DNA of 64,000 nucleotides. It comes from Gemmatimonadota bacterium. GTDB lineage: Bacteria > JAAXHH01. Below are positions 17,706-41,350 of the stretch, in pieces. The first letter of the stretch is position 1, and every line of letters starts with the position of its first letter. The translations under genes and the position numbers were made by a program. The notes beneath the pieces are model-generated. The model was not told the origin of the DNA and did not search any database. It was given only the letters and a program-made list of their open reading frames with translations. The stretch lies in contig VXMB01000009.1 of NCBI GenBank assembly GCA_009841265.1, positions 229,911-293,910 of the forward strand, in the 5' to 3' direction.

Positions 17706-17957
17706 ATGAGAAGTGGCGATGAAATGTTAAAGCAGATCGTAGAGAAGTCCTCCCTGGATTCGGATTTCAGGCAAAAGCTGATCGCGGACCCGAAGTCGAC
17801 CATCTGTGAGGAACTGGACATTACGATGCCGGAATCCATGTCGATCCAGGTCCACGAAAGCGATATGCAGACGGTACATATCGCACTGCCCCCGGATGCG
17901 AATATCACCGAGGAGCAGCTTGAAGCCGTCTCGGCCGGACTCTGCTGCTGCTGGTAA
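17706..17957 (+). CDS. NHLP (nitrile-hydratase-leader-peptide) family RiPP precursor; predicted core LCCCW
   Basis: ORF 17679..17957; strong RBS aggag 7 nt before the second ATG (17706); leader KQIVEKSSLDSDFRQKLIADPKSTICEELDITMPESMSIQVHESDMQTVHIALPP...EEQLEAVSAG matches the NHLP consensus, including the EAV-[AS]-[GA]-G double-Gly-type cleavage site; followed by LCCCW-stop. Confidence 0.7.
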   Translation: MRSGDEMLKQIVEKSSLDSDFRQKLIADPKSTICEELDITMPESMSIQVHESDMQTVHIALPPDANITEEQLEAVSAGLCCCW

Positions 17958-18013
17958 ATCGAATCAACACACCGGTTGTCATGCGGATGCCTGGCAGTCG
18001 CATGATGTGGTAG

Positions 18014-18063
18014 ATAAAAAAAGTCCTCCCCGATCATCCTGGTCGAGGAGGACTTTTGCTTTG
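18014..18063. terminator. bidirectional rho-independent terminator between convergent genes
   Basis: AAAAAAAGTCCTCC-(18-nt loop)-GGAGGACTTTTGCTTT; perfect 8-bp GC-rich stem flanked by an A-run and a T-run. Confidence 0.6.
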
Positions 18064-18100
18064 ATGGCCTGACGTTTCGCTCGGTTCGAGCGAATGGCGT

Positions 18101-19219
18101 TCAGTTCGCGTGCGCACCGGAAAGCACCATGTATAGATAGGCCTTGGCCTGTGCCAGCCGGTTTCCGGATATGACCAGCTTGATGTGATGTATGCCTCGC
18201 AACATGAGAAAAGGCCCGGTCTTGCCAAACAATGTCGTGGGTTTGGAAGCCCAGTCCGCAAGGGCCGCGAGCTTCTCCGGAACGACATAATCCTCATAGC
18301 CCAACGCATCCAGAACGGGATCCCAGTCGGTCATGCCGTCGATCCAGTAACGGGAATCCTGCGTGTACCTCTGCTTGACGATGGGCGTCAGCCCGAGTGT
18401 GGGCCCCAGCCCGTCTGCCCGCACGTCTACGTTTAAGCCAGCGCTCACGATGTCCGCCCTTTCCCTCAGGCGCGCGAGCACGGATTCGACCGCGGAAACC
18501 TGCCCCGGCCATCCGGTGTTTTCAAGATAAGGGCCGATTCCGTCCTCCGCGCTGAAACCCATGATCGCCAGGCGGACCGTGCGCTTCCGGGACGGAAACA
18601 CGCCGAAGGAGTCCAGGCGCGTGTCTTCCGGTTGCGCCAGGTAGACCCGTTCGGCGTTTTCTCGCTCAGCGGCTATCCTTTCCCAACCGACGCTGGAAAC
18701 GAGGGCGTCGACCACGATGCCGACGTCATGCTGGAGTCCGGCGCCGCCGAACAGCGTGCGTTCGTTGGGCCGCAGAAACAGGCCCGGCAACGATTTTTCT
18801 TCACCCGGCGCCGAGCCTACGTCATACTCCAGCATCAGCTTCCGCCCCACGATCTCTCTCAGCGACGAATGCTCGGCTTCCATTTCCCCGAACAGCCGCC
18901 TTACCGCTCCAGCCGTTTCATCCGTCTCGTCTGTCCGCGCTTGCGCTTCAAAAAAGTCCCCCGATCGGTTTCCGCTTGCCAGCGAGACGCCGAAGTCCGC
19001 CACGGGCCGGCTATCGTGCAGCGGAAGTTCAAAACCGAAGGGCTGGGCGCCCATCGTTATGGGCAGTTGCGTCGATTGTTTCAGTACAAGCCCCCATTCC
19101 CGCGCTCCGATCAGACCGGGTGAAATCCCATTTCGCAACTGCGCCAGCAACTCGGCCATCGTTTCGCCCTCTATGGCGAGACGATCCTGGGTGTGCAGGA
19201 CGGCATCGTCGATATTCAC
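18101..19219 (-). CDS. hypothetical protein, last gene of the RiPP operon (candidate tailoring enzyme)
   Basis: 372 aa; 9-nt gap after the YcaO gene; no motif recognised. Confidence 0.4.
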   Translation of the reverse strand: MNIDDAVLHTQDRLAIEGETMAELLAQLRNGISPGLIGAREWGLVLKQSTQLPITMGAQPFGFELPLHDSRPVADFGVSLASGNRSGDFFEAQARTDETDETAGAVRRLFGEMEAEHSSLREIVGRKLMLEYDVGSAPGEEKSLPGLFLRPNERTLFGGAGLQHDVGIVVDALVSSVGWERIAAERENAERVYLAQPEDTRLDSFGVFPSRKRTVRLAIMGFSAEDGIGPYLENTGWPGQVSAVESVLARLRERADIVSAGLNVDVRADGLGPTLGLTPIVKQRYTQDSRYWIDGMTDWDPVLDALGYEDYVVPEKLAALADWASKPTTLFGKTGPFLMLRGIHHIKLVISGNRLAQAKAYLYMVLSGAHAN

Positions 19220-19228
19220 CTTGCCTCC

Positions 19229-21667
19229 TTACACGATGACCGGTGCGGGGTTCAATTCGGCCTCGGTCAGGGGTTGATTGCGAAAGCCCATGTCGACCGG
19301 CACGTCGTACAGGCGCCCCGGGGCGAATCTCGCCCAGAAATGGCGCATGCCCGGTACGATGACCCGCGCCACCGGCATGCCGATGTCCGGCCGGGTCTGG
19401 TCCAGCACGAGGAACTCCATGCCCCTGGCTTCGATCAGCGCGCGGCAGCAGTCCACGTCTTCCCGTGTATCCGCGGTCTCGATCGCCGGATACTGCGCGG
19501 CCTGCCTGAGCGGCGCGTCCGTCGACGGCGCCAGCCAGGCACAATCGGCGATTCGAGCCGTCTTCCACCAGTTTAGCGCCATGGGATCGTCGATCATGGG
19601 CTGGTTAGGTCGACCGGATCGGCCAGACTGTGCGGGCTGACCGGTTAGTCCGGACCGACCCGATTGACCGCCGCCTACGCTTCCACCGGGCCGGGGAAGC
19701 CACGTCAGGCACTGGTTCAACTCGCATAAGGCGCGCAGGGCCGCCAGTCGCGGGTCGGCATGGGCGCCCGCGCCGTATATGATGTCCTCGGTTTCCGCGT
19801 CCGGCCGCCGGGAAAGCGCAACGAAGGACGGAATGCCCGTATCGGACGTCACGTCGAGCATCCAGACCTCCCGCTCGCATCGTCCGTAATAGTCCGTGGC
19901 CGACGCGAGGAATGGGTCGTCAAAGCTGGAGAGATCCACCCCGGGGACGCTCAGCCGGTTATACCACCAGATGGCGAAGGCATCGCGCTCGACCAGTTCA
20001 TAGAAACCCTGCAGGATGGCCTCCTCCAGGGTGTTCCCCGCGGCGCAGCCGTTGGAATCGGCAATCACTTCGGCGGGTCCGCGCTGTTCCGGCGCCATGC
20101 TGTAGAGCATCGACGTCGGCAGGTATCGATGCCGTCCTTGCGTGAACGACCACACGGGCGTCCAGTCGATTTCGGCGGCGGGATTGAAACGAGGCGGGAC
20201 GATGTTGTAGGGGTGGCCTGCCGTGTTGATGCTTTCCGCGTTGTCGAGCTGGTCGTTACTGAACAACTGCACGTCGTTGGGGTGGATCGCCCGGTCTTCG
20301 GCGGCGAAATCGACGAATTGACCGCGGGTACGGATTTCGTCTCCGCTAAAAGCGCCTGAATGACGTTCGATCGCCTCGCAGAGGGCACTGGTCTCGGACT
20401 GTTCCCGCGTACTGCCCTTGCCGGCGCTTTTGCTGCGCAGGCTGCGCCTGAGCGAACTCAGGCTCCGGCTTCTCATACCGGGATTGCTCCCGGCCCAGTA
20501 GACGTGAAGCCAGGCGTCATGCTCACTGGTCGTGCGCGCCAGCCAGGTTACGATGCCGCTTACCGGGCTCACAAGGTGGCGGTATTGCGCCAGGGTGGCT
20601 TCCGGCGTCACGGCCCGCGCACCGCCGCTGTTGCGGTGGAGTTTGGGGCTGGCCTTGAGACGCAGCGGCACCGGCGGCCGGTCGGGCCGGTGCAGCGCTT
20701 CTTCGCCGCAGGCCGGACATTGCGGCCGGCGCAGGACCGTATGCGTCGAGCTCGCGACCGCGCCGACATGCAACGAAATTGCCTGTCCGTCGATCGGCGC
20801 CGATTCCTCCAGCACCAGCCACTTGACGATTTCAGCCGAAACCAGCCCGTATACCGCCTCAAGCGCGACAGGTTCGGCGGCGAACGGCTTGAAGGCGGCA
20901 TCCTCGCCGGCAACGTGCCGAAGGAACTGGTGGGCCTCCTTGTGGCCCCGTAGCCGGTGGGCCAGGCAGTCCCAGCAGGGGCCCTTCCGGTCCGCGTGAA
21001 AGACGGGTCCGAACAGCGCCTCCATGCCGTGCGGACGCACCAGCATCCACGGCGCTCCCGCCTCGAGCCGGCACCGATTCACCGCTGCAAACCGCGCGTC
21101 GAGGTAATCGTCGCATACGATAACCTTGAGCTGGACGTCGTCGTCGGCCACCACGTCGGCCACCACGCCGGCGCCGCTCGTTTCCAGCTGCCGGGACAGC
21201 CTTCCGTCGTCGCCGTCGACAGCGACGCGCGAATCCGCCAGCCGTTGTTCGACCCATCGGGGCGATGCGCCGAGGGACGTCCAGTATGCCGCCCGGGACC
21301 GGTCCATGCCATGATCGGCGGAGATGACATAGCCCCGGTCGGAGAGCGAAACGATCGCCGCGCGCACATCGGCCGCGGCATAGCGGCCCTCGAGGTCGGC
21401 GACGATGCCGGCCAGGGGACAGCGGCCGTCGAGAAGAGGAAGCAGATCGCAAAGCAGGGCGCCGTGCAGCAGTGTATCGAAGGACTCGGAAACCAGCAGC
21501 GTCTGCTGTGCGCCGATGACGTGGGATCGCAAGTGCGGGGTAAGCGCGGGAAGATCGACGAGGCCCAGGTCATCGGGGGTCGTTCTCGTGAGTTTCCCCT
21601 GGCGGGCATTCTTGCTGGTCGTCCCTGGCGTCCCGGGTTCCCGCGTCTTCTCGGCAGGCGCTTTCAT
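19229..21667 (-). CDS. fused E1-like docking domain / YcaO cyclodehydratase (TOMM heterocyclase, PatD/TruD-like architecture)
   Basis: 812 aa; N-terminal half with CxxC pairs (CWDC, QCPACG); C-terminal YcaO domain with LVSPVSGIV, SNGCAAGNTLEEAILQGFYELVERDA and a Pro-rich C-terminus; 4-nt overlap with the upstream gene. Confidence 0.8.
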   Translation of the reverse strand: MKAPAEKTREPGTPGTTSKNARQGKLTRTTPDDLGLVDLPALTPHLRSHVIGAQQTLLVSESFDTLLHGALLCDLLPLLDGRCPLAGIVADLEGRYAAADVRAAIVSLSDRGYVISADHGMDRSRAAYWTSLGASPRWVEQRLADSRVAVDGDDGRLSRQLETSGAGVVADVVADDDVQLKVIVCDDYLDARFAAVNRCRLEAGAPWMLVRPHGMEALFGPVFHADRKGPCWDCLAHRLRGHKEAHQFLRHVAGEDAAFKPFAAEPVALEAVYGLVSAEIVKWLVLEESAPIDGQAISLHVGAVASSTHTVLRRPQCPACGEEALHRPDRPPVPLRLKASPKLHRNSGGARAVTPEATLAQYRHLVSPVSGIVTWLARTTSEHDAWLHVYWAGSNPGMRSRSLSSLRRSLRSKSAGKGSTREQSETSALCEAIERHSGAFSGDEIRTRGQFVDFAAEDRAIHPNDVQLFSNDQLDNAESINTAGHPYNIVPPRFNPAAEIDWTPVWSFTQGRHRYLPTSMLYSMAPEQRGPAEVIADSNGCAAGNTLEEAILQGFYELVERDAFAIWWYNRLSVPGVDLSSFDDPFLASATDYYGRCEREVWMLDVTSDTGIPSFVALSRRPDAETEDIIYGAGAHADPRLAALRALCELNQCLTWLPRPGGSVGGGQSGRSGLTGQPAQSGRSGRPNQPMIDDPMALNWWKTARIADCAWLAPSTDAPLRQAAQYPAIETADTREDVDCCRALIEARGMEFLVLDQTRPDIGMPVARVIVPGMRHFWARFAPGRLYDVPVDMGFRNQPLTEAELNPAPVIV

Positions 21668-24105
21668 GCGTGTGCGGCGAGCGTATCGATCCGGGCGGCG
21701 GCGCGGGTGGCGGTTTCGTCGACCGCCGACGCCAGCGCATCGAAGTCCTGCTGCCCGCAGGCGTTCGCCACCAGGGATTTGACCTTCGCTCCCGCCGTTG
21801 CCGCGTCGAATCCGTCCTCTCCGACCAGCCGCATGACCCCCTGCAAGTCACGCCACAGGTTAGCGGCTTGCGCCAGCGGCTCGTCGCCGGCGGCATCGAA
21901 CACCGCCACGGCGGACGGCGCAGGATCGTCGAGGAAGTCACCGGCACGGTTCAACTGCAGGAAGCGCGCGGCCTGCTCGACATCGTTCAATCCGCCGGGC
22001 ATCTGGGCGTATGCGGACACACTCGTCTCTGCGCGGCCTGCCGGCTGTCCGCCCGATCCGGCGTACACCGCCGCGTCCGTACTGCATTCGGCCAGGACCC
22101 GGCGCCGCGCATCATCAAAGCGGCTTCCGATGCCGGAACCCTCGGTCTCGAAGACACAACGGGTCCGGGTGAGCACGGGAACCCCGCCGGAAGCCGGGTC
22201 ACGGGCTTGCTCGGCCAGATCGGAGAGCGATACCGCTGGCATGGCCTCCACGCCGGCGGAGACCGGGGAGAACAACAGGTTGTCCTGCGCCAGGTCGGCC
22301 AGGGCCTTGCGGAAACTCCGGCACAGGCGTTCATTCGCGCCGGACTGCGCGCCGTCATGGACGAACAGCATGTCGACCGCTACGCCGGGATAGGCTTCCC
22401 GGCTGGCCAGATCACCCAGGAAGATGGCGGCGACCTCGCCCACGCTGTCCGTGCCGTACCGCTCGCCGAAATCCGCCACCACGGAGGCAAGCACCGTCGA
22501 AACCGACGCTTCGGAGAGATTGGACAGCGCCGTCCGCGCCTCCGCCGGGAGCAGGTTTCCGCGCACCACGTGCATGCCGATCTGAAACGCCTTGTCGTTC
22601 GACCAGTTCCGCACGATCTCGGCGGTTTCCCTCGCGTCGACCACGGGCAACTCGACGATCAGGTCCTTCATTTCCTGAACGCCCATTTCGTAGGTCCAGT
22701 AGACCCGTGCAAGCCCGCGCCTTGCGATCGACTCGAACTCCTCGTCCTGCTCGAATCCCTTGGGCAGGTCGAGATCGAGGAATTCCTGTTCCTGCAGGTT
22801 ATCCAGGAGCTCCGGGTTCCGTTCGATCCATTTCGCGAGCCGCGGCGCGGCGCCAAATATCTCGACGATCATGTCAAAGGCGTCGGGACGCTTCGCGGCA
22901 AGGGGACTGTCGTAGACGCTCCAGTCTTCGATCTCCGGGTAGAAGTGCTTGCGCCACTGGTCCACCAGCGGGTCCATCTTTTCAAACCACTTTTTGGGCT
23001 TCAGGACGATGTTCATCATATCGGAGTAGGTGCCTGGCAGTTCCGGCGATTCGTCGAGACTGACCTGCAGCAGGGGATACTGGCGGGATGCCACCGCGTG
23101 ATGGTCGGCATGTCGCTGCGCATTGAAAAGCATCCAGTTGCTGAACTTCCAGTCGGCACTCCAGGAATGGCGGGGCATGATCTTCTCCCACCGGCCGTTT
23201 TCCAGGCGGACCCGGCGCAGGCCGTAGTGCTGGAAGTAGTTGCTGATCTTCATCGAAAAGACGCAGGACAGGCCGAGGAAGGCGAAGACCGGGACCGCCC
23301 AGATCCCGCCCATCCAGAAAACCAGTGCGTACCAGAACGCGACGCCGAAGCCGTAGCGCCAGAAGGGATTGCTGTAATGCCACATGGTCCGGCGGCGCCG
23401 TGCCAGGCGTTCTCGTGCCACTTCCCATGAATTGACGAGGTTGCTGACGATTTCCTTGGGCATGTACCGCCAGAAACTCTCCCCCTTCGGCGCGGACCCC
23501 ACGTCGTAGGGCGTGCCGACCAGGGCGTGGTGGATATAGACGTGCTCCGTGGCATACTGCGGATAGGAAGCGGAAGACAGCAGGAACTCGCCGATCCGGC
23601 GTTCCCAGGTCGTGCGCCGGTGAATCAGTTCGTGGCCTACCACGAACACGGCCTGTGCTTCCATCGTCAGTATGATGGCCAGCACAACGTCCTGCCACCA
23701 GACGAAGGGATCCGCCACCAGGATCTGCCACAGGCCGAAGACCAGGGTGGGCGGCCACAGAAACGCCCATGACCAGACCGGCAGATTGTGCCAGATCAGG
23801 CGGTGTTTCGGCGTCTTCCACGGATCCATTATGCGTCCGTCCCGTCCGAACACCCGGTCGAAGGACCAGGAAAGACTCATGAAGACCATGGGCGGCAGGA
23901 GCCACCATCCGCCCCACAACGCGGCGAGCAGAATCAACGGGAAAACGCCCAGCGGCAGGTAATGCGGGAGGGCGGTCAGGATGGACGGCTCGATCTCCTG
24001 CGTTGCATCGGCCTGGCCCGGTCCGGTGCCATTGGTTTCAGCGCGGTCGATTTCAACTGGATTTTGTGACATGGCTACACCTCCTTGGTCAGCATAACCT
24101 GGCAC
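21664..24105 (-). CDS. fusion: AlkB-like integral-membrane di-iron hydroxylase/desaturase (N) + GlnE-like nucleotidyltransferase domain (C)
   Basis: 813 aa; His boxes HELIHRR, EHVYIHH, NYFQHYGL and LFNAQRHADHHA align with the AlkB HELGHK/EHNRGHH/NYIEHYGL/LQRHSDHHA motifs; C-terminal FLGDLASREAYPGVAVDMLFVHDG matches the GlnE/GlnD NTase motif G-x-L-x-x-RE...D-x-D-L-x-F. Confidence 0.65.
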   Translation of the reverse strand: MPGYADQGGVAMSQNPVEIDRAETNGTGPGQADATQEIEPSILTALPHYLPLGVFPLILLAALWGGWWLLPPMVFMSLSWSFDRVFGRDGRIMDPWKTPKHRLIWHNLPVWSWAFLWPPTLVFGLWQILVADPFVWWQDVVLAIILTMEAQAVFVVGHELIHRRTTWERRIGEFLLSSASYPQYATEHVYIHHALVGTPYDVGSAPKGESFWRYMPKEIVSNLVNSWEVARERLARRRRTMWHYSNPFWRYGFGVAFWYALVFWMGGIWAVPVFAFLGLSCVFSMKISNYFQHYGLRRVRLENGRWEKIMPRHSWSADWKFSNWMLFNAQRHADHHAVASRQYPLLQVSLDESPELPGTYSDMMNIVLKPKKWFEKMDPLVDQWRKHFYPEIEDWSVYDSPLAAKRPDAFDMIVEIFGAAPRLAKWIERNPELLDNLQEQEFLDLDLPKGFEQDEEFESIARRGLARVYWTYEMGVQEMKDLIVELPVVDARETAEIVRNWSNDKAFQIGMHVVRGNLLPAEARTALSNLSEASVSTVLASVVADFGERYGTDSVGEVAAIFLGDLASREAYPGVAVDMLFVHDGAQSGANERLCRSFRKALADLAQDNLLFSPVSAGVEAMPAVSLSDLAEQARDPASGGVPVLTRTRCVFETEGSGIGSRFDDARRRVLAECSTDAAVYAGSGGQPAGRAETSVSAYAQMPGGLNDVEQAARFLQLNRAGDFLDDPAPSAVAVFDAAGDEPLAQAANLWRDLQGVMRLVGEDGFDAATAGAKVKSLVANACGQQDFDALASAVDETATRAAARIDTLAAHA

Positions 24106-24136
24106 CTGCGCGGGCGTTTTCTCGTCACCGCAAGAC

Positions 24137-25438: not shown

Positions 25439-25488
25439 GAACGTCTGCTCCGTTTACACGGGTCTTGTCCGAACGTGCGGCGTGCGGA

Positions 25489-28440
25489 TCAGGCGATTTG
25501 CCGCCTGATCAGTTCCTTGAATACCCCGTCGGTCTCCTTCAGTTCGTTGAAAGAGCCGCTTTGGACGACCTTGCCGGCTTTCAGCACGTAGATGCGATCG
25601 GCCTGCTCGAGCGTGGACAGGCGATGGGCGATGACGAGGCGAGTGGAAGTCAGCGCGGCCAGGTTCCGCATCACGCTGGACTGGTTCTCGTTGTCCAGCC
25701 AGTTCGTCGCCTCGTCGAACAACATGATACGCGGGCTGCCGATCACCGAGCGGGCGATCGTGATGCGCTGGCTCTCGCCGCCCGACAGAACGGAACCGCT
25801 GGTGCCCACCATGGTCATCATGCCCATGGGCATGGCCTTGATCTGGTCTTCGACCTCGGCGGTCCGGACCGCCGCCCATACTTCATCGGTCGACACGCCT
25901 TCATAGTGGCTGACGAGGTTGTCCCAGAGATCCTGGGGATGGAGTCCGACCGATTGGGGTACCGCGCCGATCTTCCGGCGCACCTGTTTCAGATTCAGGT
26001 GCCTCAGGTCGCGCCCGTCGTAGTATACCGCCCCGGCGGTCGGCCAGTCGATGCCGAGCGCAAGCCGGAACAGGGTGCTCTTCCCGGCGCCGGATTCCCC
26101 GGCAATGGCGACGAATTCGCCGGGATGAGCGCGAATCGTTACGTCGTCGAGGATCAGTGGTCCGTCGGCGTCGTAGCGGAAAGAAACATGATCGAACAGG
26201 ATGTCCCCGCCCAGGTATTCGACCGGTTCGCCTTCCGTACCCGTCTCAGGCGCCGCCGAAAGCAGCGGACGCATCTGCTCGAAGGCCGGCAGCATGGAGG
26301 CCAGGGCGCCGATGGACTCGCCGAGCCGGGCGATGGTGGACTGAAACACGATGAAGACCGTGTAAACGACGAGAAAATCGCCGACCGGCATGTTGCGATC
26401 TCCCGCCTCCATTACCGTGAACAGGAGCACGCCGGCGGCAAGGAATGGCAGTGCGGCACCAAATGCCCGAGAATGCCCCTCCAGTGCGCCCAGTTCGATC
26501 TCCGCGCGCTTCTGTGCGCGATAATCCCGTGCCCAGATGGCGTAAGCCGAACCTTCCGCGTTATCCATGCGCAGCTTGGAAATGCCCCCCACGATCTGGA
26601 AGAGCCGGCCGGCCACGCGCCGGGCCGCCCTGATCATCCATCCGTATGGAGAGATCTGGCGCAATCCCAGCACCAGGGTGACCAGCAGCGAAACCAGGCT
26701 GAAGAGGAGGGTGACGATCCCGAGGGTGGTGTCGTAGAAGAAGATGACGCCGAAAACCGGAAGCAGGAATACCAGCGACAGGAAACAGTTGGCGACGACC
26801 CCCCGCAATCCGTCGCGGAGTTGCTGAAAGGTCATTCCCGACATGGCCAGGTCGCCCGCCGGATTGCGGTGCAGCATGCCGGGTGGAAGACGCATGAGAC
26901 GGTCCCAGAAGGCGGCTTCGACTCGGGAGGCCGAGCGCCCCTCCAGCCGCATCATCGCCATGTTCTGGAGCAGGTGCAGCATTGCGCCGAGCAGGCCGAA
27001 GGCCGCAATCGCCACGGCGACCGCGTATAGCATTCCAGCGCTTCCACCCGTCGTGATGTGGTTCGCTACGTACCCGAGGGCGAGCGCCGGCAGCAGCCGG
27101 ATCATGCCGTATGGAAGCCCGGCGATCACCATCCGTGCCCAGTCCGAGGCCGAGCCGCGCAGGGCGATGCCCAGCAGGTCCGCCGGTTTCACACCCCTTG
27201 CCGGCAGGGGCTGATAGAACATCCAGGCCTCTTCCGCCAGCGCGTCCGAACCGGCCAGGCGGGCCGCCGAGACCCGTGTGCGTCGATTGCCGGCCGGGTC
27301 AATTTGACGGTATCGTCCGAACATGCCCGGCAGCAGCGCCACGGGCCGACCGTCGTCGGCGCGGTAGGCCAGCAGCGCGTTGCTGTCACCGTGCCACCAG
27401 CGGTCCTCGGCGTTGAAACGCACGCGCCGGGCGCGCACGCCGGAAGCGTCAAGTATGTCCACGAGGCCGACGGGGGTTTCGGATTGGCCCGATCGCGCCG
27501 GGATCTTGAAATCGATGCCTTCATGACGGCCGATCAGCTGCAGGGCATCCGCAAGTGCCGTATCCTCGGCACCGTCATCCCGGTCGGTCGGAAGGTCGTA
27601 GATATTGTAGAGTCGCTGACGCGCGGTGTTCTCGGCCGTTCGGCGGCTCGCTGTCCGCGCCCGTTCGAGATTGACGGCATCTACAACGACCAGCCGGCGG
27701 TTCAGGCGCTCCAGGGTGAATGCGACCGCGTGGAACGAGGCGAGTGCCGCCAGCAGCCTGCCCTGCCGGGCCAGTGTTTCCGTTGACTGACCGGTCAGCG
27801 TCGCCTCGTCGACCAGGGTGAGCCAACTCGTCCGGGCCAGCGGGATGACCGTCTCGTGGGGGCTGCCCGTCTCCGCAAGTTCCGCCGTGTCGACGATCCC
27901 CATGAACAGGCCCGCGCCGGACGGCGGTTCAGAGATCCATACCACGCCGCGACGGACGGACAACGTACAGGGCGCCAGCGTCTGCGTCAGGCCGGGTTCG
28001 GCCAGCGCGGTCGGACGGGGAGGGGGGATGGCGAAACGCGCCAGCGTCTCCGTAATGGCGGTCAGCCACGTGTCGGTCTGTTCCGCCAGTTCCGCTGGAT
28101 CCACCCGGGACAGCAGGGAAGCCGGCAGACGCTTGAGCAGGGTGCCCGGCATTCCCCTGGCGATGATACTGAGCGTGGTGTCTGTTTCACCGCCCAACCG
28201 GTGCGGCGCGACCCCCGGCAGCAGCCAGCCCGATTCCCGGCGCAATAAGTGCTGCGGCGCCGCCTGCTCCGTCCCGTTTTTGAGTTCGACCAGGAACAGG
28301 TTGACGACGCCCTGGTCGATGAACCAGACGCTGTCCCGGTCGTCGAGGTAGACGGGCAGGTTACCTGCGCAGGGCACGGATTCGCCGAAGCGATCGGCGA
28401 GTTCGGCCAATGGCGAGTATTTCGGTTCGTTGGGCTGCAT
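25489..28440 (-). CDS. NHLM-type bacteriocin ABC transporter, second ATP-binding/permease subunit with a cNMP-binding-like N-domain (no peptidase)
   Basis: 983 aa; N-terminal ~150 aa non-peptidase domain, 6-TM permease, Walker A GESGAGKST, signature LSGGESQRITIARS, Walker B IMLFDEAT. Confidence 0.75.
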   Translation of the reverse strand: MQPNEPKYSPLAELADRFGESVPCAGNLPVYLDDRDSVWFIDQGVVNLFLVELKNGTEQAAPQHLLRRESGWLLPGVAPHRLGGETDTTLSIIARGMPGTLLKRLPASLLSRVDPAELAEQTDTWLTAITETLARFAIPPPRPTALAEPGLTQTLAPCTLSVRRGVVWISEPPSGAGLFMGIVDTAELAETGSPHETVIPLARTSWLTLVDEATLTGQSTETLARQGRLLAALASFHAVAFTLERLNRRLVVVDAVNLERARTASRRTAENTARQRLYNIYDLPTDRDDGAEDTALADALQLIGRHEGIDFKIPARSGQSETPVGLVDILDASGVRARRVRFNAEDRWWHGDSNALLAYRADDGRPVALLPGMFGRYRQIDPAGNRRTRVSAARLAGSDALAEEAWMFYQPLPARGVKPADLLGIALRGSASDWARMVIAGLPYGMIRLLPALALGYVANHITTGGSAGMLYAVAVAIAAFGLLGAMLHLLQNMAMMRLEGRSASRVEAAFWDRLMRLPPGMLHRNPAGDLAMSGMTFQQLRDGLRGVVANCFLSLVFLLPVFGVIFFYDTTLGIVTLLFSLVSLLVTLVLGLRQISPYGWMIRAARRVAGRLFQIVGGISKLRMDNAEGSAYAIWARDYRAQKRAEIELGALEGHSRAFGAALPFLAAGVLLFTVMEAGDRNMPVGDFLVVYTVFIVFQSTIARLGESIGALASMLPAFEQMRPLLSAAPETGTEGEPVEYLGGDILFDHVSFRYDADGPLILDDVTIRAHPGEFVAIAGESGAGKSTLFRLALGIDWPTAGAVYYDGRDLRHLNLKQVRRKIGAVPQSVGLHPQDLWDNLVSHYEGVSTDEVWAAVRTAEVEDQIKAMPMGMMTMVGTSGSVLSGGESQRITIARSVIGSPRIMLFDEATNWLDNENQSSVMRNLAALTSTRLVIAHRLSTLEQADRIYVLKAGKVVQSGSFNELKETDGVFKELIRRQIA

Positions 28441-30650
28441 CAGTTCGACCTGACCAGTTTGTAGTACGTGCTGTCCCGGTCGGCGATCAACTCGTCGTGC
28501 GTGCCCCGTTGTACCGTAATGCCCTGGTCCAGCACGATGATCTCATCGCAGTCCCGCACGGTACTCAGGCGGTGCGCCACGATCAGGCAGGTGACCCCGC
28601 GCCGCCGCAGCGCATCATCGACGTATTCCTCCGTGGCCGCATCGAGGGCGCTGGTGGCCTCGTCCAGGATGAGCACCGTGGGGTTGCCCACCAGCGCGCG
28701 GGCGATTTCCAGCCGTTGGCGCTGGCCGCCGCTGAAGTTCGCCCCTCCTTCTTCGACGAGCGTCGCATAGCCGTGGGGCCTGAGCAGGACTTCGTCGTGA
28801 ATCTGGGCGTCCCGCGTCGCGGCAAAGAGGACTTCGTCCGGGATGGCCGGGTTCCACAGCGTGATATTGTCGCGCAGGGACGCGGAAAAGAGCACGATCT
28901 CCTGGTCCACCATGGAGATGGATTGCCGCAGCACCTCCTCGGGGATCTGATCGCGCAAATGGTCGTCAAACATGATCTCGCCCGACCAGGGCTGGTAGAC
29001 CCCCGATACAAGCCGCGCGAGGGTCGATTTGCCGGATCCGCTTGGACCGACCACGGCGATCCGCTGGCCCGGTTTGATCTCGAGGCTGAAGTCCTTGATC
29101 AGGGGCGGCCGGCTCCGGTTGTAACCGAAGGTGACGTTACGCAGTTCCAGCTGGCCGGCGAGCTGGAGCCGGCCGTTGAACGTGTGTATCGCATCCGATT
29201 CCGGGTTTCTGCGACGAAAGACCGGATCCTCATCGGTTTTGGATATGTCCTCGAGCCGTTGCAGATCGGTTTCGAGGGCCTGGCGGTTTTCGGCGAACTC
29301 CAGGAAGCGCTCGACGGGGGCCAGGAACATCTCCGCCAGGATGAAGAATCCCACCAGCATGCCCAGCGACATTTCTCCCTGCATGACCATCATGCCGCCG
29401 ATGCCCAGGATCGCCGCACTGCGCAGCGCGTCGACCAGTCCCGGCAGCGAGGCGTTGACGGAGCCCAGTTCCGAATACAGCTGTCGTGCGCGCAACTCCC
29501 GGGCCTGTTGCCCGCTCCATCGCGAGAAAAACCGGTCGTCCGCCCCCGTCATCCGCAGATTGTCGGCATGGCTCAGCATCTGCATGCCGAGACCGATCAG
29601 CAACCCCTGCTCCCGCCTCATCGTCTGACTGCGGACGGCTCTGAGGTTGTTGAGAAAACGGGCAAGCACCGCGTGCAGCAGCGCCAGCACGATCACGATC
29701 AGCGTGAGTACGGTGTCGAAGGCGAACATCGCAATGAGGAACACCGCGCTCATGGCCATGTCGATCACGAGCACCAGGAACTGGTCCGCCAGGTTTTTGG
29801 CGATTCGGTCGGTGGACGACACCCGGTCAGTGATGTCGCCGGCCAGCCTGTTTTCAAAGAACTCCACCGGCAGGCGAAGCAGCCGTGACATCCCGTTGCT
29901 GTAGCCGGCTACCGATACACGGACCGCGAGCCGCTTGAGGAACCGGTGCTTGAGGAGAGACAGGACATACACCAGCACGCCTCCGCCCAGCAAGGCGGTT
30001 ACCAATCCGCCCCAGGTCCCGTGCTTAGCCATGACGTCGTCGACGAAAACGCCGAGCGATGCCGGAACGACCAGGGTCAACATCGTCAGCATGAGTCCGC
30101 AGGCCACCACGCCGGTCAGCAGTCGCCATGACCCGGCGATCAGGCCGTTCAGTTGCCTGAACAGGTCGGGTTGCTCGCCGCCGGGCGTAAAGTCCTCGCC
30201 GCGCTTGAAGCGAAGCGCAATGCCGCTGTAGCTCTTCTCGAACTCTTCGGCGGTGACCCTGCGCCGTCCCGTGGAAGGGTCGTTGAGATAGTAGTAGCGG
30301 CTGTCGATTCCTTCGAGGACGAGGAAATGGCTGAACTGCCAGAACAACACCAGCGGAAATTCCAGCATTTTCAGTTGCTCGGCGCGCACGCTGAGGCCGT
30401 TACACTCGAGACCGTAGTGCCGGGAGGCACGCAGGATGCTCGCGGCACTGCTTCCGTCCCGGCTCACCTCGCATTTTTCCCGCAGTTCGGTGAGCGGCAC
30501 CCATCTCCCGAAGTATCCCAGTACGATGCCGAGACAGGCCGCGCCGCACTCCGATGCGTGCATCTGCAGCAGAACGGGCGTGGATATCCGCTGCGCCGAG
30601 TCGTCCGCGGCGTTCTTGTTGCCGGCTTGTTTGGTCGTGCTCACCGTCAT
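28440..30650 (-). CDS. NHLM-type bacteriocin ABC transporter with N-terminal C39 peptidase domain (leader-cleaving exporter)
   Basis: 736 aa; C39 catalytic Cys context QMHASECGAACLGIVLGYFG, TM domain, Walker A GPSGSGKST, LSGGQRQR, ILDEATSALD. Confidence 0.8.
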   Translation of the reverse strand: MTVSTTKQAGNKNAADDSAQRISTPVLLQMHASECGAACLGIVLGYFGRWVPLTELREKCEVSRDGSSAASILRASRHYGLECNGLSVRAEQLKMLEFPLVLFWQFSHFLVLEGIDSRYYYLNDPSTGRRRVTAEEFEKSYSGIALRFKRGEDFTPGGEQPDLFRQLNGLIAGSWRLLTGVVACGLMLTMLTLVVPASLGVFVDDVMAKHGTWGGLVTALLGGGVLVYVLSLLKHRFLKRLAVRVSVAGYSNGMSRLLRLPVEFFENRLAGDITDRVSSTDRIAKNLADQFLVLVIDMAMSAVFLIAMFAFDTVLTLIVIVLALLHAVLARFLNNLRAVRSQTMRREQGLLIGLGMQMLSHADNLRMTGADDRFFSRWSGQQARELRARQLYSELGSVNASLPGLVDALRSAAILGIGGMMVMQGEMSLGMLVGFFILAEMFLAPVERFLEFAENRQALETDLQRLEDISKTDEDPVFRRRNPESDAIHTFNGRLQLAGQLELRNVTFGYNRSRPPLIKDFSLEIKPGQRIAVVGPSGSGKSTLARLVSGVYQPWSGEIMFDDHLRDQIPEEVLRQSISMVDQEIVLFSASLRDNITLWNPAIPDEVLFAATRDAQIHDEVLLRPHGYATLVEEGGANFSGGQRQRLEIARALVGNPTVLILDEATSALDAATEEYVDDALRRRGVTCLIVAHRLSTVRDCDEIIVLDQGITVQRGTHDELIADRDSTYYKLVRSN

Positions 30651-30657
30651 CCTGCGG

Positions 30658-31215
30658 TCACCTCATGAGGAACAGCCCGATCGGAGACTGCCTGCCCAGC
30701 TCGATGACGATCCGGCACTTCATGCCCGCCAGGGATTCCAGATCCCGGTCTTCCGAGAGTGCGGTCTCGAGCGTTATATCGATGCGGTGAACGGATACCG
30801 GCGCCGCGGTCTCAAAGGCGGCCGGCCCGCCCGAGACGGGTTCGGCGGCGATGGCTCTAACCGTTCCGCCGGGTGCGTATGTATCTCCATCCGCCGGCTC
30901 CGGCTCGATCAATACCGGCATCCCGGCCGCGATATCCGGTGCGATTTCACTATTGATCCAGGCGAGGGCCTCTACGGAGATGCCGCCGTCGGGAAGGGTT
31001 TCCCCCTGCTCCACGATGACGCCGTCCACCACGATACTGCGCGCCACGCTGCCGAAGAAAAACCACGCCAGGAGGGCACACAGAAAAACAGCGATCGCGG
31101 CAACCAGCAGCCGTTCCCGCGGCGTGGATATCGTCAGAAGCCGGTCGAGTTGCTCGCGGTCTTCCTTCGCCTCCGCAACGGTTTCATGAAATGAGTTCAG
31201 CAGATTGTTAAACAC
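30658..31215 (-). CDS. HlyD-family secretion adaptor (short NHLM-type)
   Basis: 185 aa; single N-terminal TM helix then periplasmic beta/lipoyl-like segment; position immediately upstream of the two ABC genes. Confidence 0.55.
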   Translation of the reverse strand: MFNNLLNSFHETVAEAKEDREQLDRLLTISTPRERLLVAAIAVFLCALLAWFFFGSVARSIVVDGVIVEQGETLPDGGISVEALAWINSEIAPDIAAGMPVLIEPEPADGDTYAPGGTVRAIAAEPVSGGPAAFETAAPVSVHRIDITLETALSEDRDLESLAGMKCRIVIELGRQSPIGLFLMR

Positions 31216-31428
31216 GGGCGTTTAATGGTCTCCTCATGGTAATTAAGCGGGGTAGTACGCTCACGAGTCGGGCCGGTTTGCATGCTCACGATAGTTAAAT
31301 CCGACCAGTACGATGCATATATTATGATATGTTATATGTTTCAAATCAAGAAATGTCACGCTGTGGACTTCACGGGACGCCGTCGCGGACATCCGGAACA
31401 TGAGCCTTTGATCGGTATCGAGGTTGCC

Positions 31429-32724
31429 CTAAACCGGCGCCTGTCGGCCGGTCCAGCCCAGTCCCTGGGACATCTGTGCGTAACTGGTGAGCGGCACCGC
31501 GCACATCCGGTGCCAGTCGGCTTTGTCGATGACCGGCCGGTTCAGCAGTTCGAGCATCCCATCGAATCTGCCGAGTGCATCGCAATCCACCGCCTCGGGA
31601 TCCATGGCCTTTCGGTGCCGGGGCCAGGCTCGTTCTCGCGCGTGGCGCCAGAACGCGCCGTCGTAAATCGAACCGCAGGCATAGTGCCAGCCGACGAAAA
31701 GGCCGTAGCAGAGCATGTTGTTGATGAGAAACCGGTTGACCGAGGGCGCGTCGCGCCCGAGATGCGCCGCCGGCCGATTGAGGCGCGTCTGGAGCACCAT
31801 CCCGACCTGCAGTTGAGCGGACACGATCGCCGTCGCCTCGAGGGGCTCCATGAAAGCCGCCGCGTTGCCGATGCGGGCCACGGCGCCGTCATAGATCCGG
31901 CGATGGACGAAGTTCGGAAACGGGATGACGGCCCGTTGCTCGAATTCAGCCACGCCGTCGGTCTCCAGGAATGCGTCAAAGTCCGATTCGACTTCCGCAA
32001 GGTCGGATACGTCGCGGTTGAAGATGTACCCGTAAGACGTGTGCACCGTCAACGGAATGACGAATATCCAACCGTGAGGACGGGCAACCGCCCGCGTGTA
32101 GGTATGTTGCCGTACCGGTCCGTTCCGCCCGTCTTCGATGATCGTCGGGCAGCGCCGGATGACGGCGGTATTGGTAGGGATGAAAGAAATGTCGATGTGC
32201 TGATCGGGGTGCAGTTCCTTCGGAAACCCACGGGCATCGAAGACCAGGTCGTAGCGTTCCGACTCCCGGCCCTCGAATTCCACCTGCGCGCCGTCCTCCA
32301 CCCTGGTGATGTCGAGCACTTTCGCGTCGATGTGGCGCGCGCGCGTGCCTTCACGCAGCAGGTCCGCCATCAGGTCGGCGGACAGGTGGTAGGCGTAAGA
32401 CACTTGCTGTGGGGTGAAGTAGTGGGTGAAATCCCGGTCGCGCCGGCCCCATCCCTCGAAGGCGACACCGTACTTGCGTGTGCCCTTCAAACGTTGCTGG
32501 ACGGTCTCATGGGGCAGCCCCGTCAGTTTCTGCAGTTCCTGCACCAGGCTCGGCCAGCTGCCTTCTCCCACCCCGATGACCGGAATGCGCGAGTCATAGA
32601 TGTGGTGCAGCTCGTGGTCGCCGTCGGGGTGAAGACGCGTTACGCTGGCGGCCGCCAGGGATCCTGCGGTCCCCTGCCCGATAACGGCGATCTTCCGTAA
32701 CGATTCCGCGCCCGGCTGGATCAT
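31429..32724 (-). CDS. flavin-dependent halogenase family (tryptophan-halogenase-like) protein
   Basis: 431 aa; FAD motif IAVIGQGTAGSLAA, IGVGEGSWP (cf. GVGEAT), GWIFVIPL (WxWxIP with the second W replaced by F), AAAFMEPLEATAI (cf. FIEPLESTGI). Confidence 0.65.
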   Translation of the reverse strand: MIQPGAESLRKIAVIGQGTAGSLAAASVTRLHPDGDHELHHIYDSRIPVIGVGEGSWPSLVQELQKLTGLPHETVQQRLKGTRKYGVAFEGWGRRDRDFTHYFTPQQVSYAYHLSADLMADLLREGTRARHIDAKVLDITRVEDGAQVEFEGRESERYDLVFDARGFPKELHPDQHIDISFIPTNTAVIRRCPTIIEDGRNGPVRQHTYTRAVARPHGWIFVIPLTVHTSYGYIFNRDVSDLAEVESDFDAFLETDGVAEFEQRAVIPFPNFVHRRIYDGAVARIGNAAAFMEPLEATAIVSAQLQVGMVLQTRLNRPAAHLGRDAPSVNRFLINNMLCYGLFVGWHYACGSIYDGAFWRHARERAWPRHRKAMDPEAVDCDALGRFDGMLELLNRPVIDKADWHRMCAVPLTSYAQMSQGLGWTGRQAPV

Positions 32725-36158: not shown

Positions 36159-36170
36159 ATCATACCTCGT

Positions 36171-36743
36171 TCATGTATTTCGTATCGCGGCTTCGAGGCG
36201 CTGGGCAAGGTTATCGAAATCCTCGGGACACTTCTGCCGAATTGCGTTAATACGGCGGGATGCCTCTTCTGCCAAAGGCTCTCTACCACCGCCGGGCTTG
36301 TCCGATAAGTTGCGCTGGTCGACAAGTGGCTCGAAGTACTGCTCCTTGACCCGTACTTCGGCTCGTAGAGTGTTCCAATTCCAATTTGCGGGTAATTGCA
36401 AGCCCGCGAGAACCCAAGTCTCAAGCTCTTCCCAGGCGTTTTCGGCCAGGAATACCCGGACATCTCCAAACTTCGCTTCAAACTCGTCGAGTCTCTGGCG
36501 CCGTCCTTCCTCGCCATCGCGGTCGACGCACAGGATGAAGATATCCATCATGCCTCTATAACGAGCTACGATTTCCGAGATTCGCTCCATTTTCAATGCT
36601 TCACCAATGCCGCCAAGCCGCGGGTCCTGGCAAACCAGAATACGTGCTCCTGGCCTACCAAGGGATCGAAGAAGTTGACTGAAGATCGGATTCAGAATGT
36701 ATTGGTCCTTACGGTCGTCTTCCGGTATGATGAGAACTCTCAA
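36171..36743 (-). CDS. small Toprim-like partner protein (DUF4276/RloB-like) of the AAA ATPase
   Basis: ORF 36171..36800 overlaps the upstream gene; a TTG at 36743 overlapping the AAA stop (TTGA) gives LRVLIIPEDDRKDQYILNPIF..., resembling DUF4276 N-termini. Confidence 0.35.
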   Translation of the reverse strand: MRVLIIPEDDRKDQYILNPIFSQLLRSLGRPGARILVCQDPRLGGIGEALKMERISEIVARYRGMMDIFILCVDRDGEEGRRQRLDEFEAKFGDVRVFLAENAWEELETWVLAGLQLPANWNWNTLRAEVRVKEQYFEPLVDQRNLSDKPGGGREPLAEEASRRINAIRQKCPEDFDNLAQRLEAAIRNT

Positions 36744-41292: not shown

Positions 41293-41350
41293 CCCTGTTC
41301 TCCGTCTTCCTCTTGCTTAAAAACTACGTTAGTCAAAGAAGGATACTTAG

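What the first reader, a model, noticed from the sequence alone, without database searches (positions are those of the whole stretch)
17706..32724. Complete NHLP-leader TOMM/RiPP cluster with an unusual tailoring set and a 5-residue core
Eight co-directional genes (minus strand, with small gaps or 1-4 nt overlaps) plus one convergent precursor gene. The precursor has an NHLP leader ending EAVSAG followed by LCCCW. The cluster also encodes a fused E1-like/YcaO heterocyclase; an AlkB-like hydroxylase fused to a GlnE-like NTase; a leader-like domain fused to an alpha/alpha toroid; a Trp-halogenase-family flavoprotein; and a 372-aa unknown. Export is by HlyD, a C39-peptidase ABC and a second ABC with a cNMP-like N-domain. 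The core architecture (NHLP precursor + docking/cyclodehydratase fusion + paired ABC transporters + HlyD) matches the NHLP/Nif11 bacteriocin system described from comparative genomics. The halogenase, the hydroxylase-NTase fusion and the leader-toroid fusion are not part of that description. The single precursor has three consecutive Cys and a C-terminal Trp, so it offers exactly the substrates for a YcaO (Cys to thiazoline) and a Trp halogenase. The predicted product is a very small, heavily modified peptide (tri-azoline/azole plus halo- and/or hydroxy-Trp). No SagB-like FMN dehydrogenase and no flavin reductase are recognisable, so the oxidation state of the heterocycles and the source of reduced flavin are open.
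Basis: partly seen in the sequence, partly recalled or inferred. Interest (0 to 1): 0.9.

Follow-up and report, generated by a model that had tools for sequence, protein, structure and literature searches.

The report
Known sponge-symbiont srp peptide gene cluster
This is an intact copy of the already published 'srp' gene cluster of marine-sponge bacteria, which turns the tiny peptide LCCCW into a brominated, thiazoline-containing product; what is new here is only a prediction that three of its uncharacterised genes add and reshape a terpene lipid.

Summary
Nine intact genes lie at 17706-32724: an 83-aa NHLP precursor ending SAG|LCCCW, plus eight genes on the minus strand.

It is not new. It is an orthologue of the srp (sponge-derived RiPP proteusin) cluster of Nguyen et al. 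2021.
- The precursor is 76% identical to published SrpE, with the same core.
- The halogenase is 83% identical to characterised SrpI.
- The reference locus, recovered from that study's metagenome, has the same toroid / AlkB-GlnE / YcaO / 370-aa / precursor block.

The gene set recurs in 51 MAG loci across many phyla. LCCCW is present in 36 of 37 precursors.

- The 'toroid' is a single-domain class II terpene cyclase with an invariant DLDST motif.
- The hydroxylase is a true AlkB homologue.
- The GlnE-like motif is degenerate.

Together these suggest, without proof, a terpenylated final product.

The cNMP-like domain and a canonical HlyD are not supported.

The parts
17706..17957 (+). srpE orthologue. 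83-aa NHLP (proteusin) precursor: a 78-aa leader ending ...NITEEQLEAVSAG, then the core LCCCW.
   Evidence: TIGR03793 61.4 bits, above the 50.9 cutoff. 76% identity and 95% positives to published SrpE, with an identical core. The MRSGD start and 83-aa length are conserved in 36 loci. 252 bp, as reported for srp precursors.
18101..19219 (-). 372-aa protein with an ABBA (PT-barrel) aromatic-prenyltransferase fold. It corresponds to srpD by position. Predicted peptide prenyltransferase.
19229..21667 (-). srpC orthologue. Fused wHTH/RRE + E1-like docking domain + YcaO cyclodehydratase.
   Evidence: PF02624 E 1e-92; TIGR03882 E 3e-40; TIGR03604 278 bits against 219; PF21084 wHTH at residues 43-114. 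69% identical to the YcaO of the reference srp locus.
21664..24105 (-). Membrane AlkB-type di-iron oxygenase (about residues 119-392) fused to a GlnE-like nucleotidyltransferase-fold domain (about residues 400-610) and a C-terminal extension. It corresponds to srpB by position.
   Evidence: PDB AlkB 8f6t E 1e-45 and 8sbb E 1e-34. His boxes HELIHR, EHVYIHH, NYFQHYGL and RHADHH are conserved in 33 homologues. GlnE matches are weak (PF03710 21 bits; NF010706 E 8e-22 over residues 493-585). The NTase motif is degenerate: LGDLASRE...A-V/I-D/E-M-L, with one carboxylate missing.
24137..25438 (-). NHLP-like N-domain (about residues 1-80) fused to a single-domain class II terpene-cyclase-like alpha/alpha toroid (about residues 110-433). 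It corresponds to srpA by position.
25489..28440 (-). NHLM-type ABC2 permease/ATPase with a 290-aa N-terminal domain of unknown type.
   Evidence: TIGR03797 649 bits, just below the 709 cutoff, covering residues 294-982. The N-domain has no Pfam hit at E<=1. The N-domain is conserved among homologues.
28440..30650 (-). C39-peptidase ABC exporter (NHLM ABC1). Predicted to cleave after SAG and export the product.
   Evidence: TIGR03796 867 bits against 853; Peptidase_C39 E 1e-33. The catalytic-Cys context QMHASECGAACL is present in the sequence.
30658..31215 (-). Short (185 aa) membrane-anchored protein related only at its N-terminus to the NHLM HlyD adaptor.
   Evidence: TIGR03794 29.9 bits against 156, residues 21-72 only. 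Full-length conserved in 29 of 35 loci. Analogous short proteins precede the C39 ABC in L053 and L055.
31429..32724 (-). srpI orthologue. Flavin-dependent peptidyl-Trp 6-brominase.
   Evidence: 83% identity to the published SrpI sequence. Trp_halogenase E 5e-44. GxGxxG is present. The Lys in GTRKYG is invariant and aligns with the Lys of a homologous Trp halogenase structure (9luq); its catalytic role is assigned from general knowledge of the family. The nearest PDB relatives include MibH, 5uao.

Best explanation
The region is an intact orthologue of the srp (sponge-derived RiPP proteusin) biosynthetic gene cluster. It is carried by a Gemmatimonadetes-type sponge-symbiont MAG.

Steps shown for the orthologous proteins in the literature:
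- The 83-aa NHLP precursor is bound through its leader.
- The fused RRE/E1-like/YcaO enzyme (SrpC) cyclodehydrates the three Cys of LCCCW to thiazolines, using ATP.
- The flavin-dependent halogenase (SrpI) brominates C6 of the C-terminal Trp. This step depends on the leader, through the L(X)4L motif, which is I(X)4L here.

Step inferred from family membership:
- The C39-peptidase ABC cleaves after SAG. It exports the pentapeptide product together with the second ABC and the short adaptor-like protein.

Steps inferred here from fold and gene neighbourhood (about 0.45 probability as a set):
- The 372-aa PT-barrel protein prenylates the peptide, most simply on the Trp indole.
- The NHLP-fused class II cyclase protonates and cyclises the attached oligoprenyl chain.
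- The membrane AlkB domain hydroxylates that lipid.

The product would then be a brominated thiazoline-peptide/terpenoid hybrid.

The GlnE-like domain lacks a complete catalytic motif and is probably not a working nucleotidyltransferase. The NHLP domain on the cyclase has lost both the L(X)4L motif and the cleavage-site pattern. It probably serves as a docking module rather than as a substrate.
For: Identity with srp:
- Precursor 76% identical to SrpE, with the same LCCCW core.
- Halogenase 83% identical to SrpI.
- The contig from the Nguyen 2021 metagenome that carries exact SrpE and 99%-identical SrpI has the order toroid / FA_desaturase+GlnE / YcaO / 370-aa / precursor ... halogenase. Identity to the window proteins is 67-84%.

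Published function:
- LCCCW Cys converted to thiazolines by SrpC, and C-terminal Trp bromination by SrpI.
- SrpI is an obligate brominase.
- Bromination is at indole position 6.

Conservation:
- 51 loci in MAGs of many phyla.
- LCCCW in 36 of 37 precursors.
- PT 35, cyclase 35, YcaO 33 and AlkB fusion 33 of 35 complete loci.
- srp precursors are highly transcribed in sponges, with the same ITEEQL consensus as here.

PT fold.

Cyclase fold and acid motif.

AlkB.

PT-family members elsewhere:
- All 5 distant members examined sit beside NHLP precursors.
- In L055 the PT is directly followed by a leaderless homologue of the cyclase with a PDADST motif.

Precedent: the mpp cluster pairs an SrpI-like brominase with a leader-dependent ABBA PT that geranylates Trp, a terpene synthase and an oxygenase.
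Against: - Nothing was tested on this locus.
- Some related clusters have cores with no Trp or Tyr, for example VTPAGSEPIT. The acceptor residue is therefore uncertain.
- No prenyl-diphosphate synthase, rubredoxin or flavin reductase was found among the window ORFs scanned with Pfam.
- No srp natural product is reported in the follow-up papers I could read. SrpC gave only partial modification in E. coli.
- I could not read the 2021 paper. I therefore cannot say what it proposed for srpA, srpB and srpD.
Confidence: 0.9

Rival explanations
1. The cluster makes only the brominated tri-thiazoline pentapeptide. On this view the PT-barrel protein, the toroid and the AlkB fusion do not build a terpenoid on the peptide. 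They would act instead as non-catalytic leader or peptide chaperones, as immunity or self-protection proteins, or on a separate lipid substrate.
For: - The PT family has no detectable sequence similarity to active PTs.
- Related clusters have cores without aromatic acceptors.
- No prenyl-diphosphate synthase lies in the window.
- The follow-up papers I could read characterise only SrpC, SrpE and SrpI.
Against: - 55-95% conservation of the PT in 35 of 35 complete loci across phyla.
- Invariant Arg, Lys and Tyr residues on barrel strands.
- Invariant DLDST acid motif in the cyclase.
- Intact AlkB His boxes.
- The PT-cyclase pair recurs in an unrelated NHLP cluster.
- There is a direct precedent for leader-dependent Trp prenylation next to an SrpI-like brominase.
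Confidence: 0.35
2. The AlkB/FA-desaturase-family domain acts as the missing azoline oxidase. It would dehydrogenate thiazolines to thiazoles in place of a SagB-type FMN dehydrogenase.
For: - No SagB-like dehydrogenase is present in the cluster or window.
- The domain belongs to the FA_desaturase superfamily. From general knowledge, that superfamily includes dehydrogenating enzymes.
Against: - The closest relatives by far are alkane 1-monooxygenases, that is hydroxylases (E 1e-45).
- The literature describes thiazolines as the SrpC product and as the physiological SrpI substrate.
- A membrane-embedded active site suits a lipid better than a leader-bound peptide.
Confidence: 0.1
3. The NHLP-toroid protein is itself a cargo or second 'precursor'. 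Its leader-like domain would target it to the C39 ABC transporter for cleavage after RTG and secretion.
For: - The N-domain aligns with the whole leader, up to a Gly at the position of the cleavage site.
- G78 is invariant.
Against: - The L(X)4L motif and the hydrophobic -4/-7 positions of the double-Gly signal are replaced (FTREEREEARTG against ITEEQLEAVSAG).
- A folded 350-aa toroid is an unlikely PCAT cargo (inference from general knowledge of these exporters).
- The homologous cyclase in L055 has no such domain.
- The Nitrospira loci L009-L011 show the fusion but no ABC genes within the 10-kb flanks.
Confidence: 0.07

Closest known systems
srp BGC (sponge-derived RiPP proteusin) from the Smenospongia aurea metagenome, with SrpC, SrpE and SrpI (Nguyen et al., JACS 2021; follow-ups PMC10286304, PMC10858898)
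   Same: - Same NHLP precursor family and identical LCCCW core (76% identity).
- Same halogenase (83%), YcaO (69%), AlkB-GlnE fusion (69%) and 370-aa PT-fold protein (67%).
- Same toroid/AlkB/YcaO/PT/convergent-precursor block.
   Different: - Here the halogenase sits upstream, next to the transporter genes. In the reference it lies downstream of the precursor, after three other genes (Amidohydro_2, DUF1329, DUF1302).
- The leader motif is ITEEQL rather than LTEEQL. That variant has already been reported as the consensus in other sponges.
mpp BGC of Moorena producens (MppE, MppI, MppC, MppD, MppM; PMC11791876, PMC12715784)
   Same: - Long structured leader.
- SrpI-like leader-dependent Trp brominase.
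- An ABBA prenyltransferase acting on Trp, plus a terpene synthase and an oxygenase.
This is the same tailoring logic that I infer for srp.
   Different: - The leader is Nif11, not NHLP.
- Macrocyclisation is by LanM, not YcaO.
- MppC is described as an ABBA-type soluble PT. The srp protein matches none of the PT families in Pfam.
- The terpene enzyme is not fused to a leader-like domain.
NHLP/Nif11 bacteriocin system (Haft, Basu and Mitchell 2010; TIGR03793-03797)
   Same: NHLP leader, docking/cyclodehydratase fusion and paired ABC transporters with a C39 peptidase.
   Different: - The HlyD component is a 185-aa protein that fails the family model.
- ABC2 is just below its cutoff.
- There are extra halogenase, PT, cyclase and AlkB genes.
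mpr BGC of Methylovulum psychrotolerans (MprC, MprD, MprE)
   Same: NHLP precursors processed by an RRE-containing YcaO.
   Different: - mpr has an FMN azoline oxidase (MprD) and ten precursors.
- srp has no oxidase and one precursor.
- MprC does not accept the SrpE leader.
Single-domain class II terpene cyclases (MstE, PDB 6sbb; 8paj; 6ij1)
   Same: Single alpha/alpha-toroid domain of about 320-350 aa, with a DxD(S/D)T acid motif and a QW-like repeat.
   Different: - Only 16-19% identity.
- The srp protein is fused to an NHLP leader-like domain and sits in a RiPP cluster.
- The substrate would be a peptide-bound prenyl chain.
AlkB alkane 1-monooxygenase (PDB 8f6t AlkB-AlkG fusion; 8sbb)
   Same: All four His-box motifs, and homology at E 1e-45.
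   Different: - The C-terminal partner is a degenerate GlnE-like NTase-fold domain, not a rubredoxin.
- No electron-transfer partner is encoded nearby.

Membership tests
srp BGC (Nguyen et al. 2021) | NHLP (proteusin) precursor with the core LCCCW | tested here: met
   TIGR03793 above cutoff. 76% identity to SrpE with an identical core.
srp BGC (Nguyen et al. 2021) | SrpI-type flavin-dependent halogenase | tested here: met
   83% identity over the full length to the published SrpI sequence.
srp BGC (Nguyen et al. 2021) | SrpC-type fused YcaO cyclodehydratase, and synteny with the reference locus | tested here: met
   L059 carries exact SrpE and 99%-identical SrpI. It has the order toroid / AlkB-GlnE / YcaO / 370-aa / precursor, at 67-73% identity to the window proteins.
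srp BGC (Nguyen et al. 2021) | Origin in a marine-sponge microbiome | tested here: inconclusive
   - Exact match to MAG contig VXVJ01000187.1 of GCA_009836475.1.
- The identical toroid protein is named 'Gemmatimonadetes bacterium'.
- The related MAGs are metagenome bins with names such as SB06xx, IRC, APA, COS and RHO.
- The host sponge is not stated in any data I could read.
srp BGC (Nguyen et al. 2021) | Thiazoline formation and Trp-6 bromination of the core | not testable with these tools
   Known only from the literature on the orthologues.
NHLP/Nif11 bacteriocin export system (TIGR03794/96/97) | ABC1 with a C39 peptidase | tested here: met
   TIGR03796 867 bits against a cutoff of 853.
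NHLP/Nif11 bacteriocin export system (TIGR03794/96/97) | ABC2 equivalog | tested here: inconclusive
   TIGR03797 649 bits against a cutoff of 709, with an extra 290-aa N-domain.
NHLP/Nif11 bacteriocin export system (TIGR03794/96/97) | HlyD-type secretion protein (about 420 aa) | tested here: not met
   185 aa. 29.9 bits against 156. Only residues 21-72 match.
TOMM / linear azol(in)e peptides | Cyclodehydratase (E1-like + YcaO) | tested here: met
   TIGR03882 and TIGR03604 are both above cutoff.
TOMM / linear azol(in)e peptides | SagB-type FMN dehydrogenase | tested here: not met
   No such domain in any ORF of the cluster or window scanned with Pfam.
ABBA (PT-barrel) aromatic prenyltransferases | PT-barrel fold | tested here: met
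ABBA (PT-barrel) aromatic prenyltransferases | Sequence membership in a known PT family (for example Trp_DMAT or PTase_Orf2) | tested here: not met
   No Pfam hit for 29 members at E<=10. No PDB hit with a profile at E<=10.
ABBA (PT-barrel) aromatic prenyltransferases | Prenyl-diphosphate-dependent alkylation activity | not testable with these tools
   Needs an enzyme assay.
Class II terpene cyclases | alpha/alpha-toroid fold of the SHC/MstE type | tested here: met
Class II terpene cyclases | DxDD-type general-acid motif | tested here: met
   Present as the variant D209-L-D211-S-T. It is invariant in 28 homologues. It aligns to PADADST of cyclase 8paj.
AlkB alkane monooxygenases | Four His-box motifs of the di-iron site | tested here: met
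   HELIHR, EHVYIHH, NYFQHYGL and RHADHH are conserved. Homology E 1e-45.
AlkB alkane monooxygenases | Rubredoxin/reductase electron partner | tested here: not met
   None was found fused or among the window ORFs scanned with Pfam. It may be encoded elsewhere.
GlnE-type nucleotidyltransferases | hG[GS]x9-13Dh[DE]h catalytic motif | tested here: not met
   The motif reads LGDLASREAYPGVAVDMLF. Only one carboxylate is present, and it is replaced by K or H in 3 of 33 homologues. The Pfam score is below cutoff.
Flavin-dependent Trp halogenases | GxGxxG FAD motif and the Lys that is catalytic in this family | tested here: met
   GQGTAG is present. The K in GTRKYG is invariant and aligns with the Lys of the 9luq halogenase.

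The most novel reading that the evidence does not exclude
The still-cryptic srp product, encoded in very many sponge-symbiont genomes, may not be just a brominated tri-thiazoline pentapeptide. It may be a peptide-terpenoid hybrid, built by three components:
- a previously unrecognised sequence family of PT-barrel prenyltransferases dedicated to NHLP precursors (808 cluster representatives at E<=1e-3);
- a class II terpene cyclase that carries its own leader-like NHLP domain as a docking module;
- a membrane AlkB oxygenase.
Probability: 0.35. Interest if true: 0.75.

Novelty: already known. Interest (0 to 1): 0.38.

Why it matters
As a cluster it adds nothing new. It is one more copy of a published and widely distributed sponge-microbiome BGC, and its key steps are already reconstituted.

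Its residual value is that the final srp natural product and the roles of srpA, srpB and srpD are still undescribed in the literature I could access. This is despite the very high transcription reported in sponges.

The fold-level assignments made here are a prenyltransferase, a class II terpene cyclase and an AlkB hydroxylase. They turn 'what does this cluster make?' into a concrete, cheap experiment.

They also point to a broader set of proteusin pathways that contain the same PT-barrel family.

Tried and rejected
1. The primary srp paper (PMC8780398) and the mpr paper (PMC9746716) are not held. The srpA/B/D lettering is therefore inferred from gene order in the reference contig. I do not know what those authors proposed for these genes.

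2. Pfam, NCBIfam and PDB sequence or profile searches for the 372-aa protein all returned nothing. Only predicted structure gave a signal.

3. There was no Pfam hit at E<=1.

4. I looked for a flavin reductase, SagB-type dehydrogenase, rubredoxin and polyprenyl synthase among the non-overlapping window ORFs of at least 120 aa. None was found.

5. Literature searches for srp or proteusin together with prenyl, terpene cyclase or alkane hydroxylase found no paper assigning these functions.

6. I considered that the short HlyD was a truncated pseudogene. I rejected this because it is conserved full-length.

7. I considered the 92-aa ORF start at 17679. I rejected it in favour of M10 (17706), from conservation and from the published 83-aa SrpE.

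Full report
**Observation.** ORF listing and translation confirm nine genes at 17706-32724.

One is a plus-strand precursor: MRSGDEMLKQ...NITEEQLEAVSAG|LCCCW. It is 83 aa from the conserved Met at 17706.

Eight are co-directional minus-strand genes, separated by short gaps or by overlaps of 1 to 4 nt.

HMM scans give:
- NHLP leader TIGR03793: 61.4 bits (cutoff 50.9).
- YcaO: 1e-92.
- TOMM docking TIGR03882: 3e-40.
- SagD-type TIGR03604: 278 bits (cutoff 219).
- C39 ABC TIGR03796: 867 bits (cutoff 853).
- Second ABC TIGR03797: 649 bits (cutoff 709).
- Trp_halogenase: 5e-44.
- FA_desaturase: 3e-25.
- Weak GlnE, NHase_alpha and SQHop_cyclase_C hits.
- Nothing for the 372-aa protein.

The 'HlyD' is a 185-aa protein that matches only 52 residues of the NHLM HlyD model. 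The next gene upstream (32838-36158) is a DUF499 anti-phage protein. The next downstream is a sodium:solute symporter.

**What it is.** The literature held here identifies the system at once.
- The Agarwal laboratory's SrpE proteusin has the core LCCCW.
- Its C-terminal Trp is brominated by the flavin-dependent, leader-dependent halogenase SrpI. SrpI is an obligate brominase, and it brominates indole position 6 on RiPP substrates.
- A metatranscriptome preprint reports highly expressed 252-bp srp precursor genes with the consensus ITEEQL, exactly as here.

Using the SrpE and SrpI sequences printed in a supplement:
- the window precursor is 76% identical (95% positives), with an identical core;
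- the halogenase is 83% identical over its full length.

**The reference locus.** Searching with published SrpI found a 99%-identical protein on a 169-kb contig from sample NGUY21-1_SAMN17524318.

That contig encodes exactly the published SrpE. Its gene order is: toroid, FA_desaturase+GlnE, YcaO, a 370-aa protein with no Pfam hit, precursor (opposite strand), Amidohydro_2, DUF1329, DUF1302, halogenase.

Nine genes in this order fit the published letters (C = YcaO, E = precursor, I = halogenase). By position, the toroid fusion is srpA, the AlkB fusion is srpB and the 370-aa protein is srpD. This lettering is my inference, because the 2021 paper itself is not held.

The window proteins are 67-84% identical to those of this locus.

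**Distribution.** A genome scan with the toroid protein returned 51 loci in MAGs labelled Gemmatimonadota, Latescibacterota, Nitrospira, Nitrospinota, Binatia, Bryobacterales, and Gamma- and Alphaproteobacteria.

Among the 35 loci with full 10-kb flanks:

| Gene | Loci with the gene (of 35) |
|---|---|
| PT-fold protein | 35 |
| Toroid | 35 |
| YcaO | 33 |
| AlkB fusion | 33 |
| Halogenase | 31 |
| Precursor | 30 |
| C39 ABC | 29 |
| Short adaptor | 29 |
| ABC2 | 28 |
| All nine genes | 20 |

The core is LCCCW in 36 of 37 precursors. The exception is LSCCW.

The window matches a GenBank MAG contig exactly. The identical toroid protein is annotated as coming from a Gemmatimonadetes bacterium.

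**The 372-aa protein.**
- It has more than 900 close homologues, none with a Pfam domain.
- An AF2 model built on 29 sequences has pLDDT 83 and pTM 0.85, with a repeated alpha-alpha-beta-beta pattern.
- Foldseek agrees: the top 50 are all aromatic PTs, probability 1.00.
- Sequence-level membership of known PT families fails.

An exhaustive profile search finds 808 cluster representatives. All five distant members whose contigs I read lie immediately beside NHLP precursor genes, with varying partners: P450, 2OG oxygenase, YcaO, cytokinin-dehydrogenase-like FAD oxidase, and PCAT transporters.

This is therefore a proteusin-associated PT-barrel family.

Cores in those clusters include VAIPIW and Trp- or Tyr-containing peptides. 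They also include VTPAGSEPIT, so the acceptor residue is not settled.

**The toroid.**
- The N-terminal 80 residues are an NHLP/NHase-alpha domain. They match, among others, the NMR structure of the MprE leader, 8tb1.
- Against the precursor, this domain keeps the helical part and the VHE..T.H..LPP segment. It replaces ITEEQLEAVSAG with FTREEREEARTG. Both the L(X)4L motif used by SrpI and the hydrophobic double-Gly signature are lost.
- A profile aligns PQDLDST to PADADST of 8paj, and a QW-like repeat to SHC 555-593.
- D209, L210, D211, S212 and T213 are invariant.
- In the distant cluster L055, the PT homologue is directly followed by a leaderless homologue of this cyclase with PDADST.

**The AlkB fusion.**
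- Residues 119-392 match AlkB structures at 1e-45 and 1e-34.
- All four His boxes are conserved.
- The GlnE-like segment has LGDLASRE...A-V/I-D/E-M-L in place of G[GS]...DxD. Even the remaining carboxylate is lost in 3 of 33 homologues. A working nucleotidyltransferase is unlikely.
- No rubredoxin, flavin reductase, SagB-type dehydrogenase or polyprenyl synthase is encoded among the window ORFs scanned with Pfam.

**Mechanism.**

Shown for orthologues:
- leader-guided formation of three thiazolines by the YcaO;
- 6-bromination of the terminal Trp.

Inferred from family membership:
- cleavage after SAG and export by the C39 ABC, with ABC2 and the short adaptor.

Inferred here, at about 0.45 as a set:
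- prenylation by the PT-barrel protein;
- acid-initiated cyclisation of the attached chain by the NHLP-cyclase;
- hydroxylation of that lipid by the membrane AlkB domain.

The mpp cluster of Moorena gives a direct precedent. It combines an SrpI-like brominase, a leader-dependent ABBA PT that geranylates Trp C5, a terpene synthase and an oxygenase.

Rivals, each listed with its test:
- the three proteins are non-catalytic, or act on another substrate;
- AlkB acts as an azoline oxidase;
- the NHLP-toroid is a secreted cargo.

**Verdict.**
- The finding is real, and its core interpretation is right.
- The only new content is the fold-based functional hypothesis for three uncharacterised srp genes, together with the wider proteusin-associated PT-barrel family.
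- I could not check that hypothesis against the 2021 paper.

Noticed in passing
window 32838-48203 (minus strand): A defence-island-like block lies directly upstream of the cluster. It contains a DUF499 anti-phage protein (1106 aa), a 209-aa ORF, an AAA_21/AAA_15 ATPase, a DUF1156 methyltransferase-like protein (1090 aa), a TIR-STAND protein and an SNF2/ResIII helicase with HTH and NOV_C domains (1223 aa).
   Followed up: partly
window 41351-43816: The TIR + STAND NTPase gene lies in a sharp low-GC segment: GC 0.42 at 42-44 kb, against about 0.63 for the cluster. This suggests recent foreign origin.
   Followed up: no
window 57474-58679 (minus strand): There is a second, stand-alone FA_desaturase-family gene (401 aa) about 25 kb from the cluster. 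I did not check whether it is an AlkB-type paralogue.
   Followed up: no
window 31282-32700 (+): A 472-aa ORF runs antisense to the halogenase gene. It is almost certainly an artefact of high GC content, because the minus-strand product is 83% identical to SrpI.
   Followed up: partly
L012 and L013 (both on contig CBDBZU010000004.1): One MAG chromosome carries two srp loci. The second has the only variant core seen (LSCCW). It also lacks the halogenase and a complete transporter set within 10 kb.
   Followed up: no
L009-L011 (Nitrospira MAGs): In these loci no ABC transporter or adaptor genes were detected within the 10-kb flanks. The halogenase sits directly upstream of the NHLP-cyclase.
   Followed up: no
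L045 (Arenicellales MAG); L044: L045 keeps the precursor (LCCCW), PT, cyclase, transporters and halogenase, but no YcaO or AlkB fusion within 10 kb. L044 lacks the AlkB fusion. The cyclodehydratase may be encoded elsewhere, or the pathway may differ.
   Followed up: no
L019, L026, L029, L030, L033, L035, L038, L050: These loci share a rearranged cluster type. The PT gene is at the far upstream end. The AlkB fusion is on the opposite strand, downstream of the precursor, at only about 50% identity. The leader motif is ITEEQM or MTEEQM.
   Followed up: no
L053, L055-L058 (metagenome contigs): Other NHLP-precursor clusters carry distant members of the same PT-barrel family with different partners. 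These include a cytokinin-dehydrogenase-like FAD oxidase, a P450, a 2OG-Fe(II) oxygenase, a YcaO and a full-length squalene-hopene cyclase. L058 has two PT paralogues. These look like uncharacterised proteusin pathways.
   Followed up: partly
window 16151-17641 (+): The sodium:solute symporter gene next to the precursor is syntenic with the cluster, at 89-96% identity, in the closest relatives (L002-L007, L031, L048, L051). It is absent in more distant loci. It is probably flanking genome rather than part of the cluster.
   Followed up: partly
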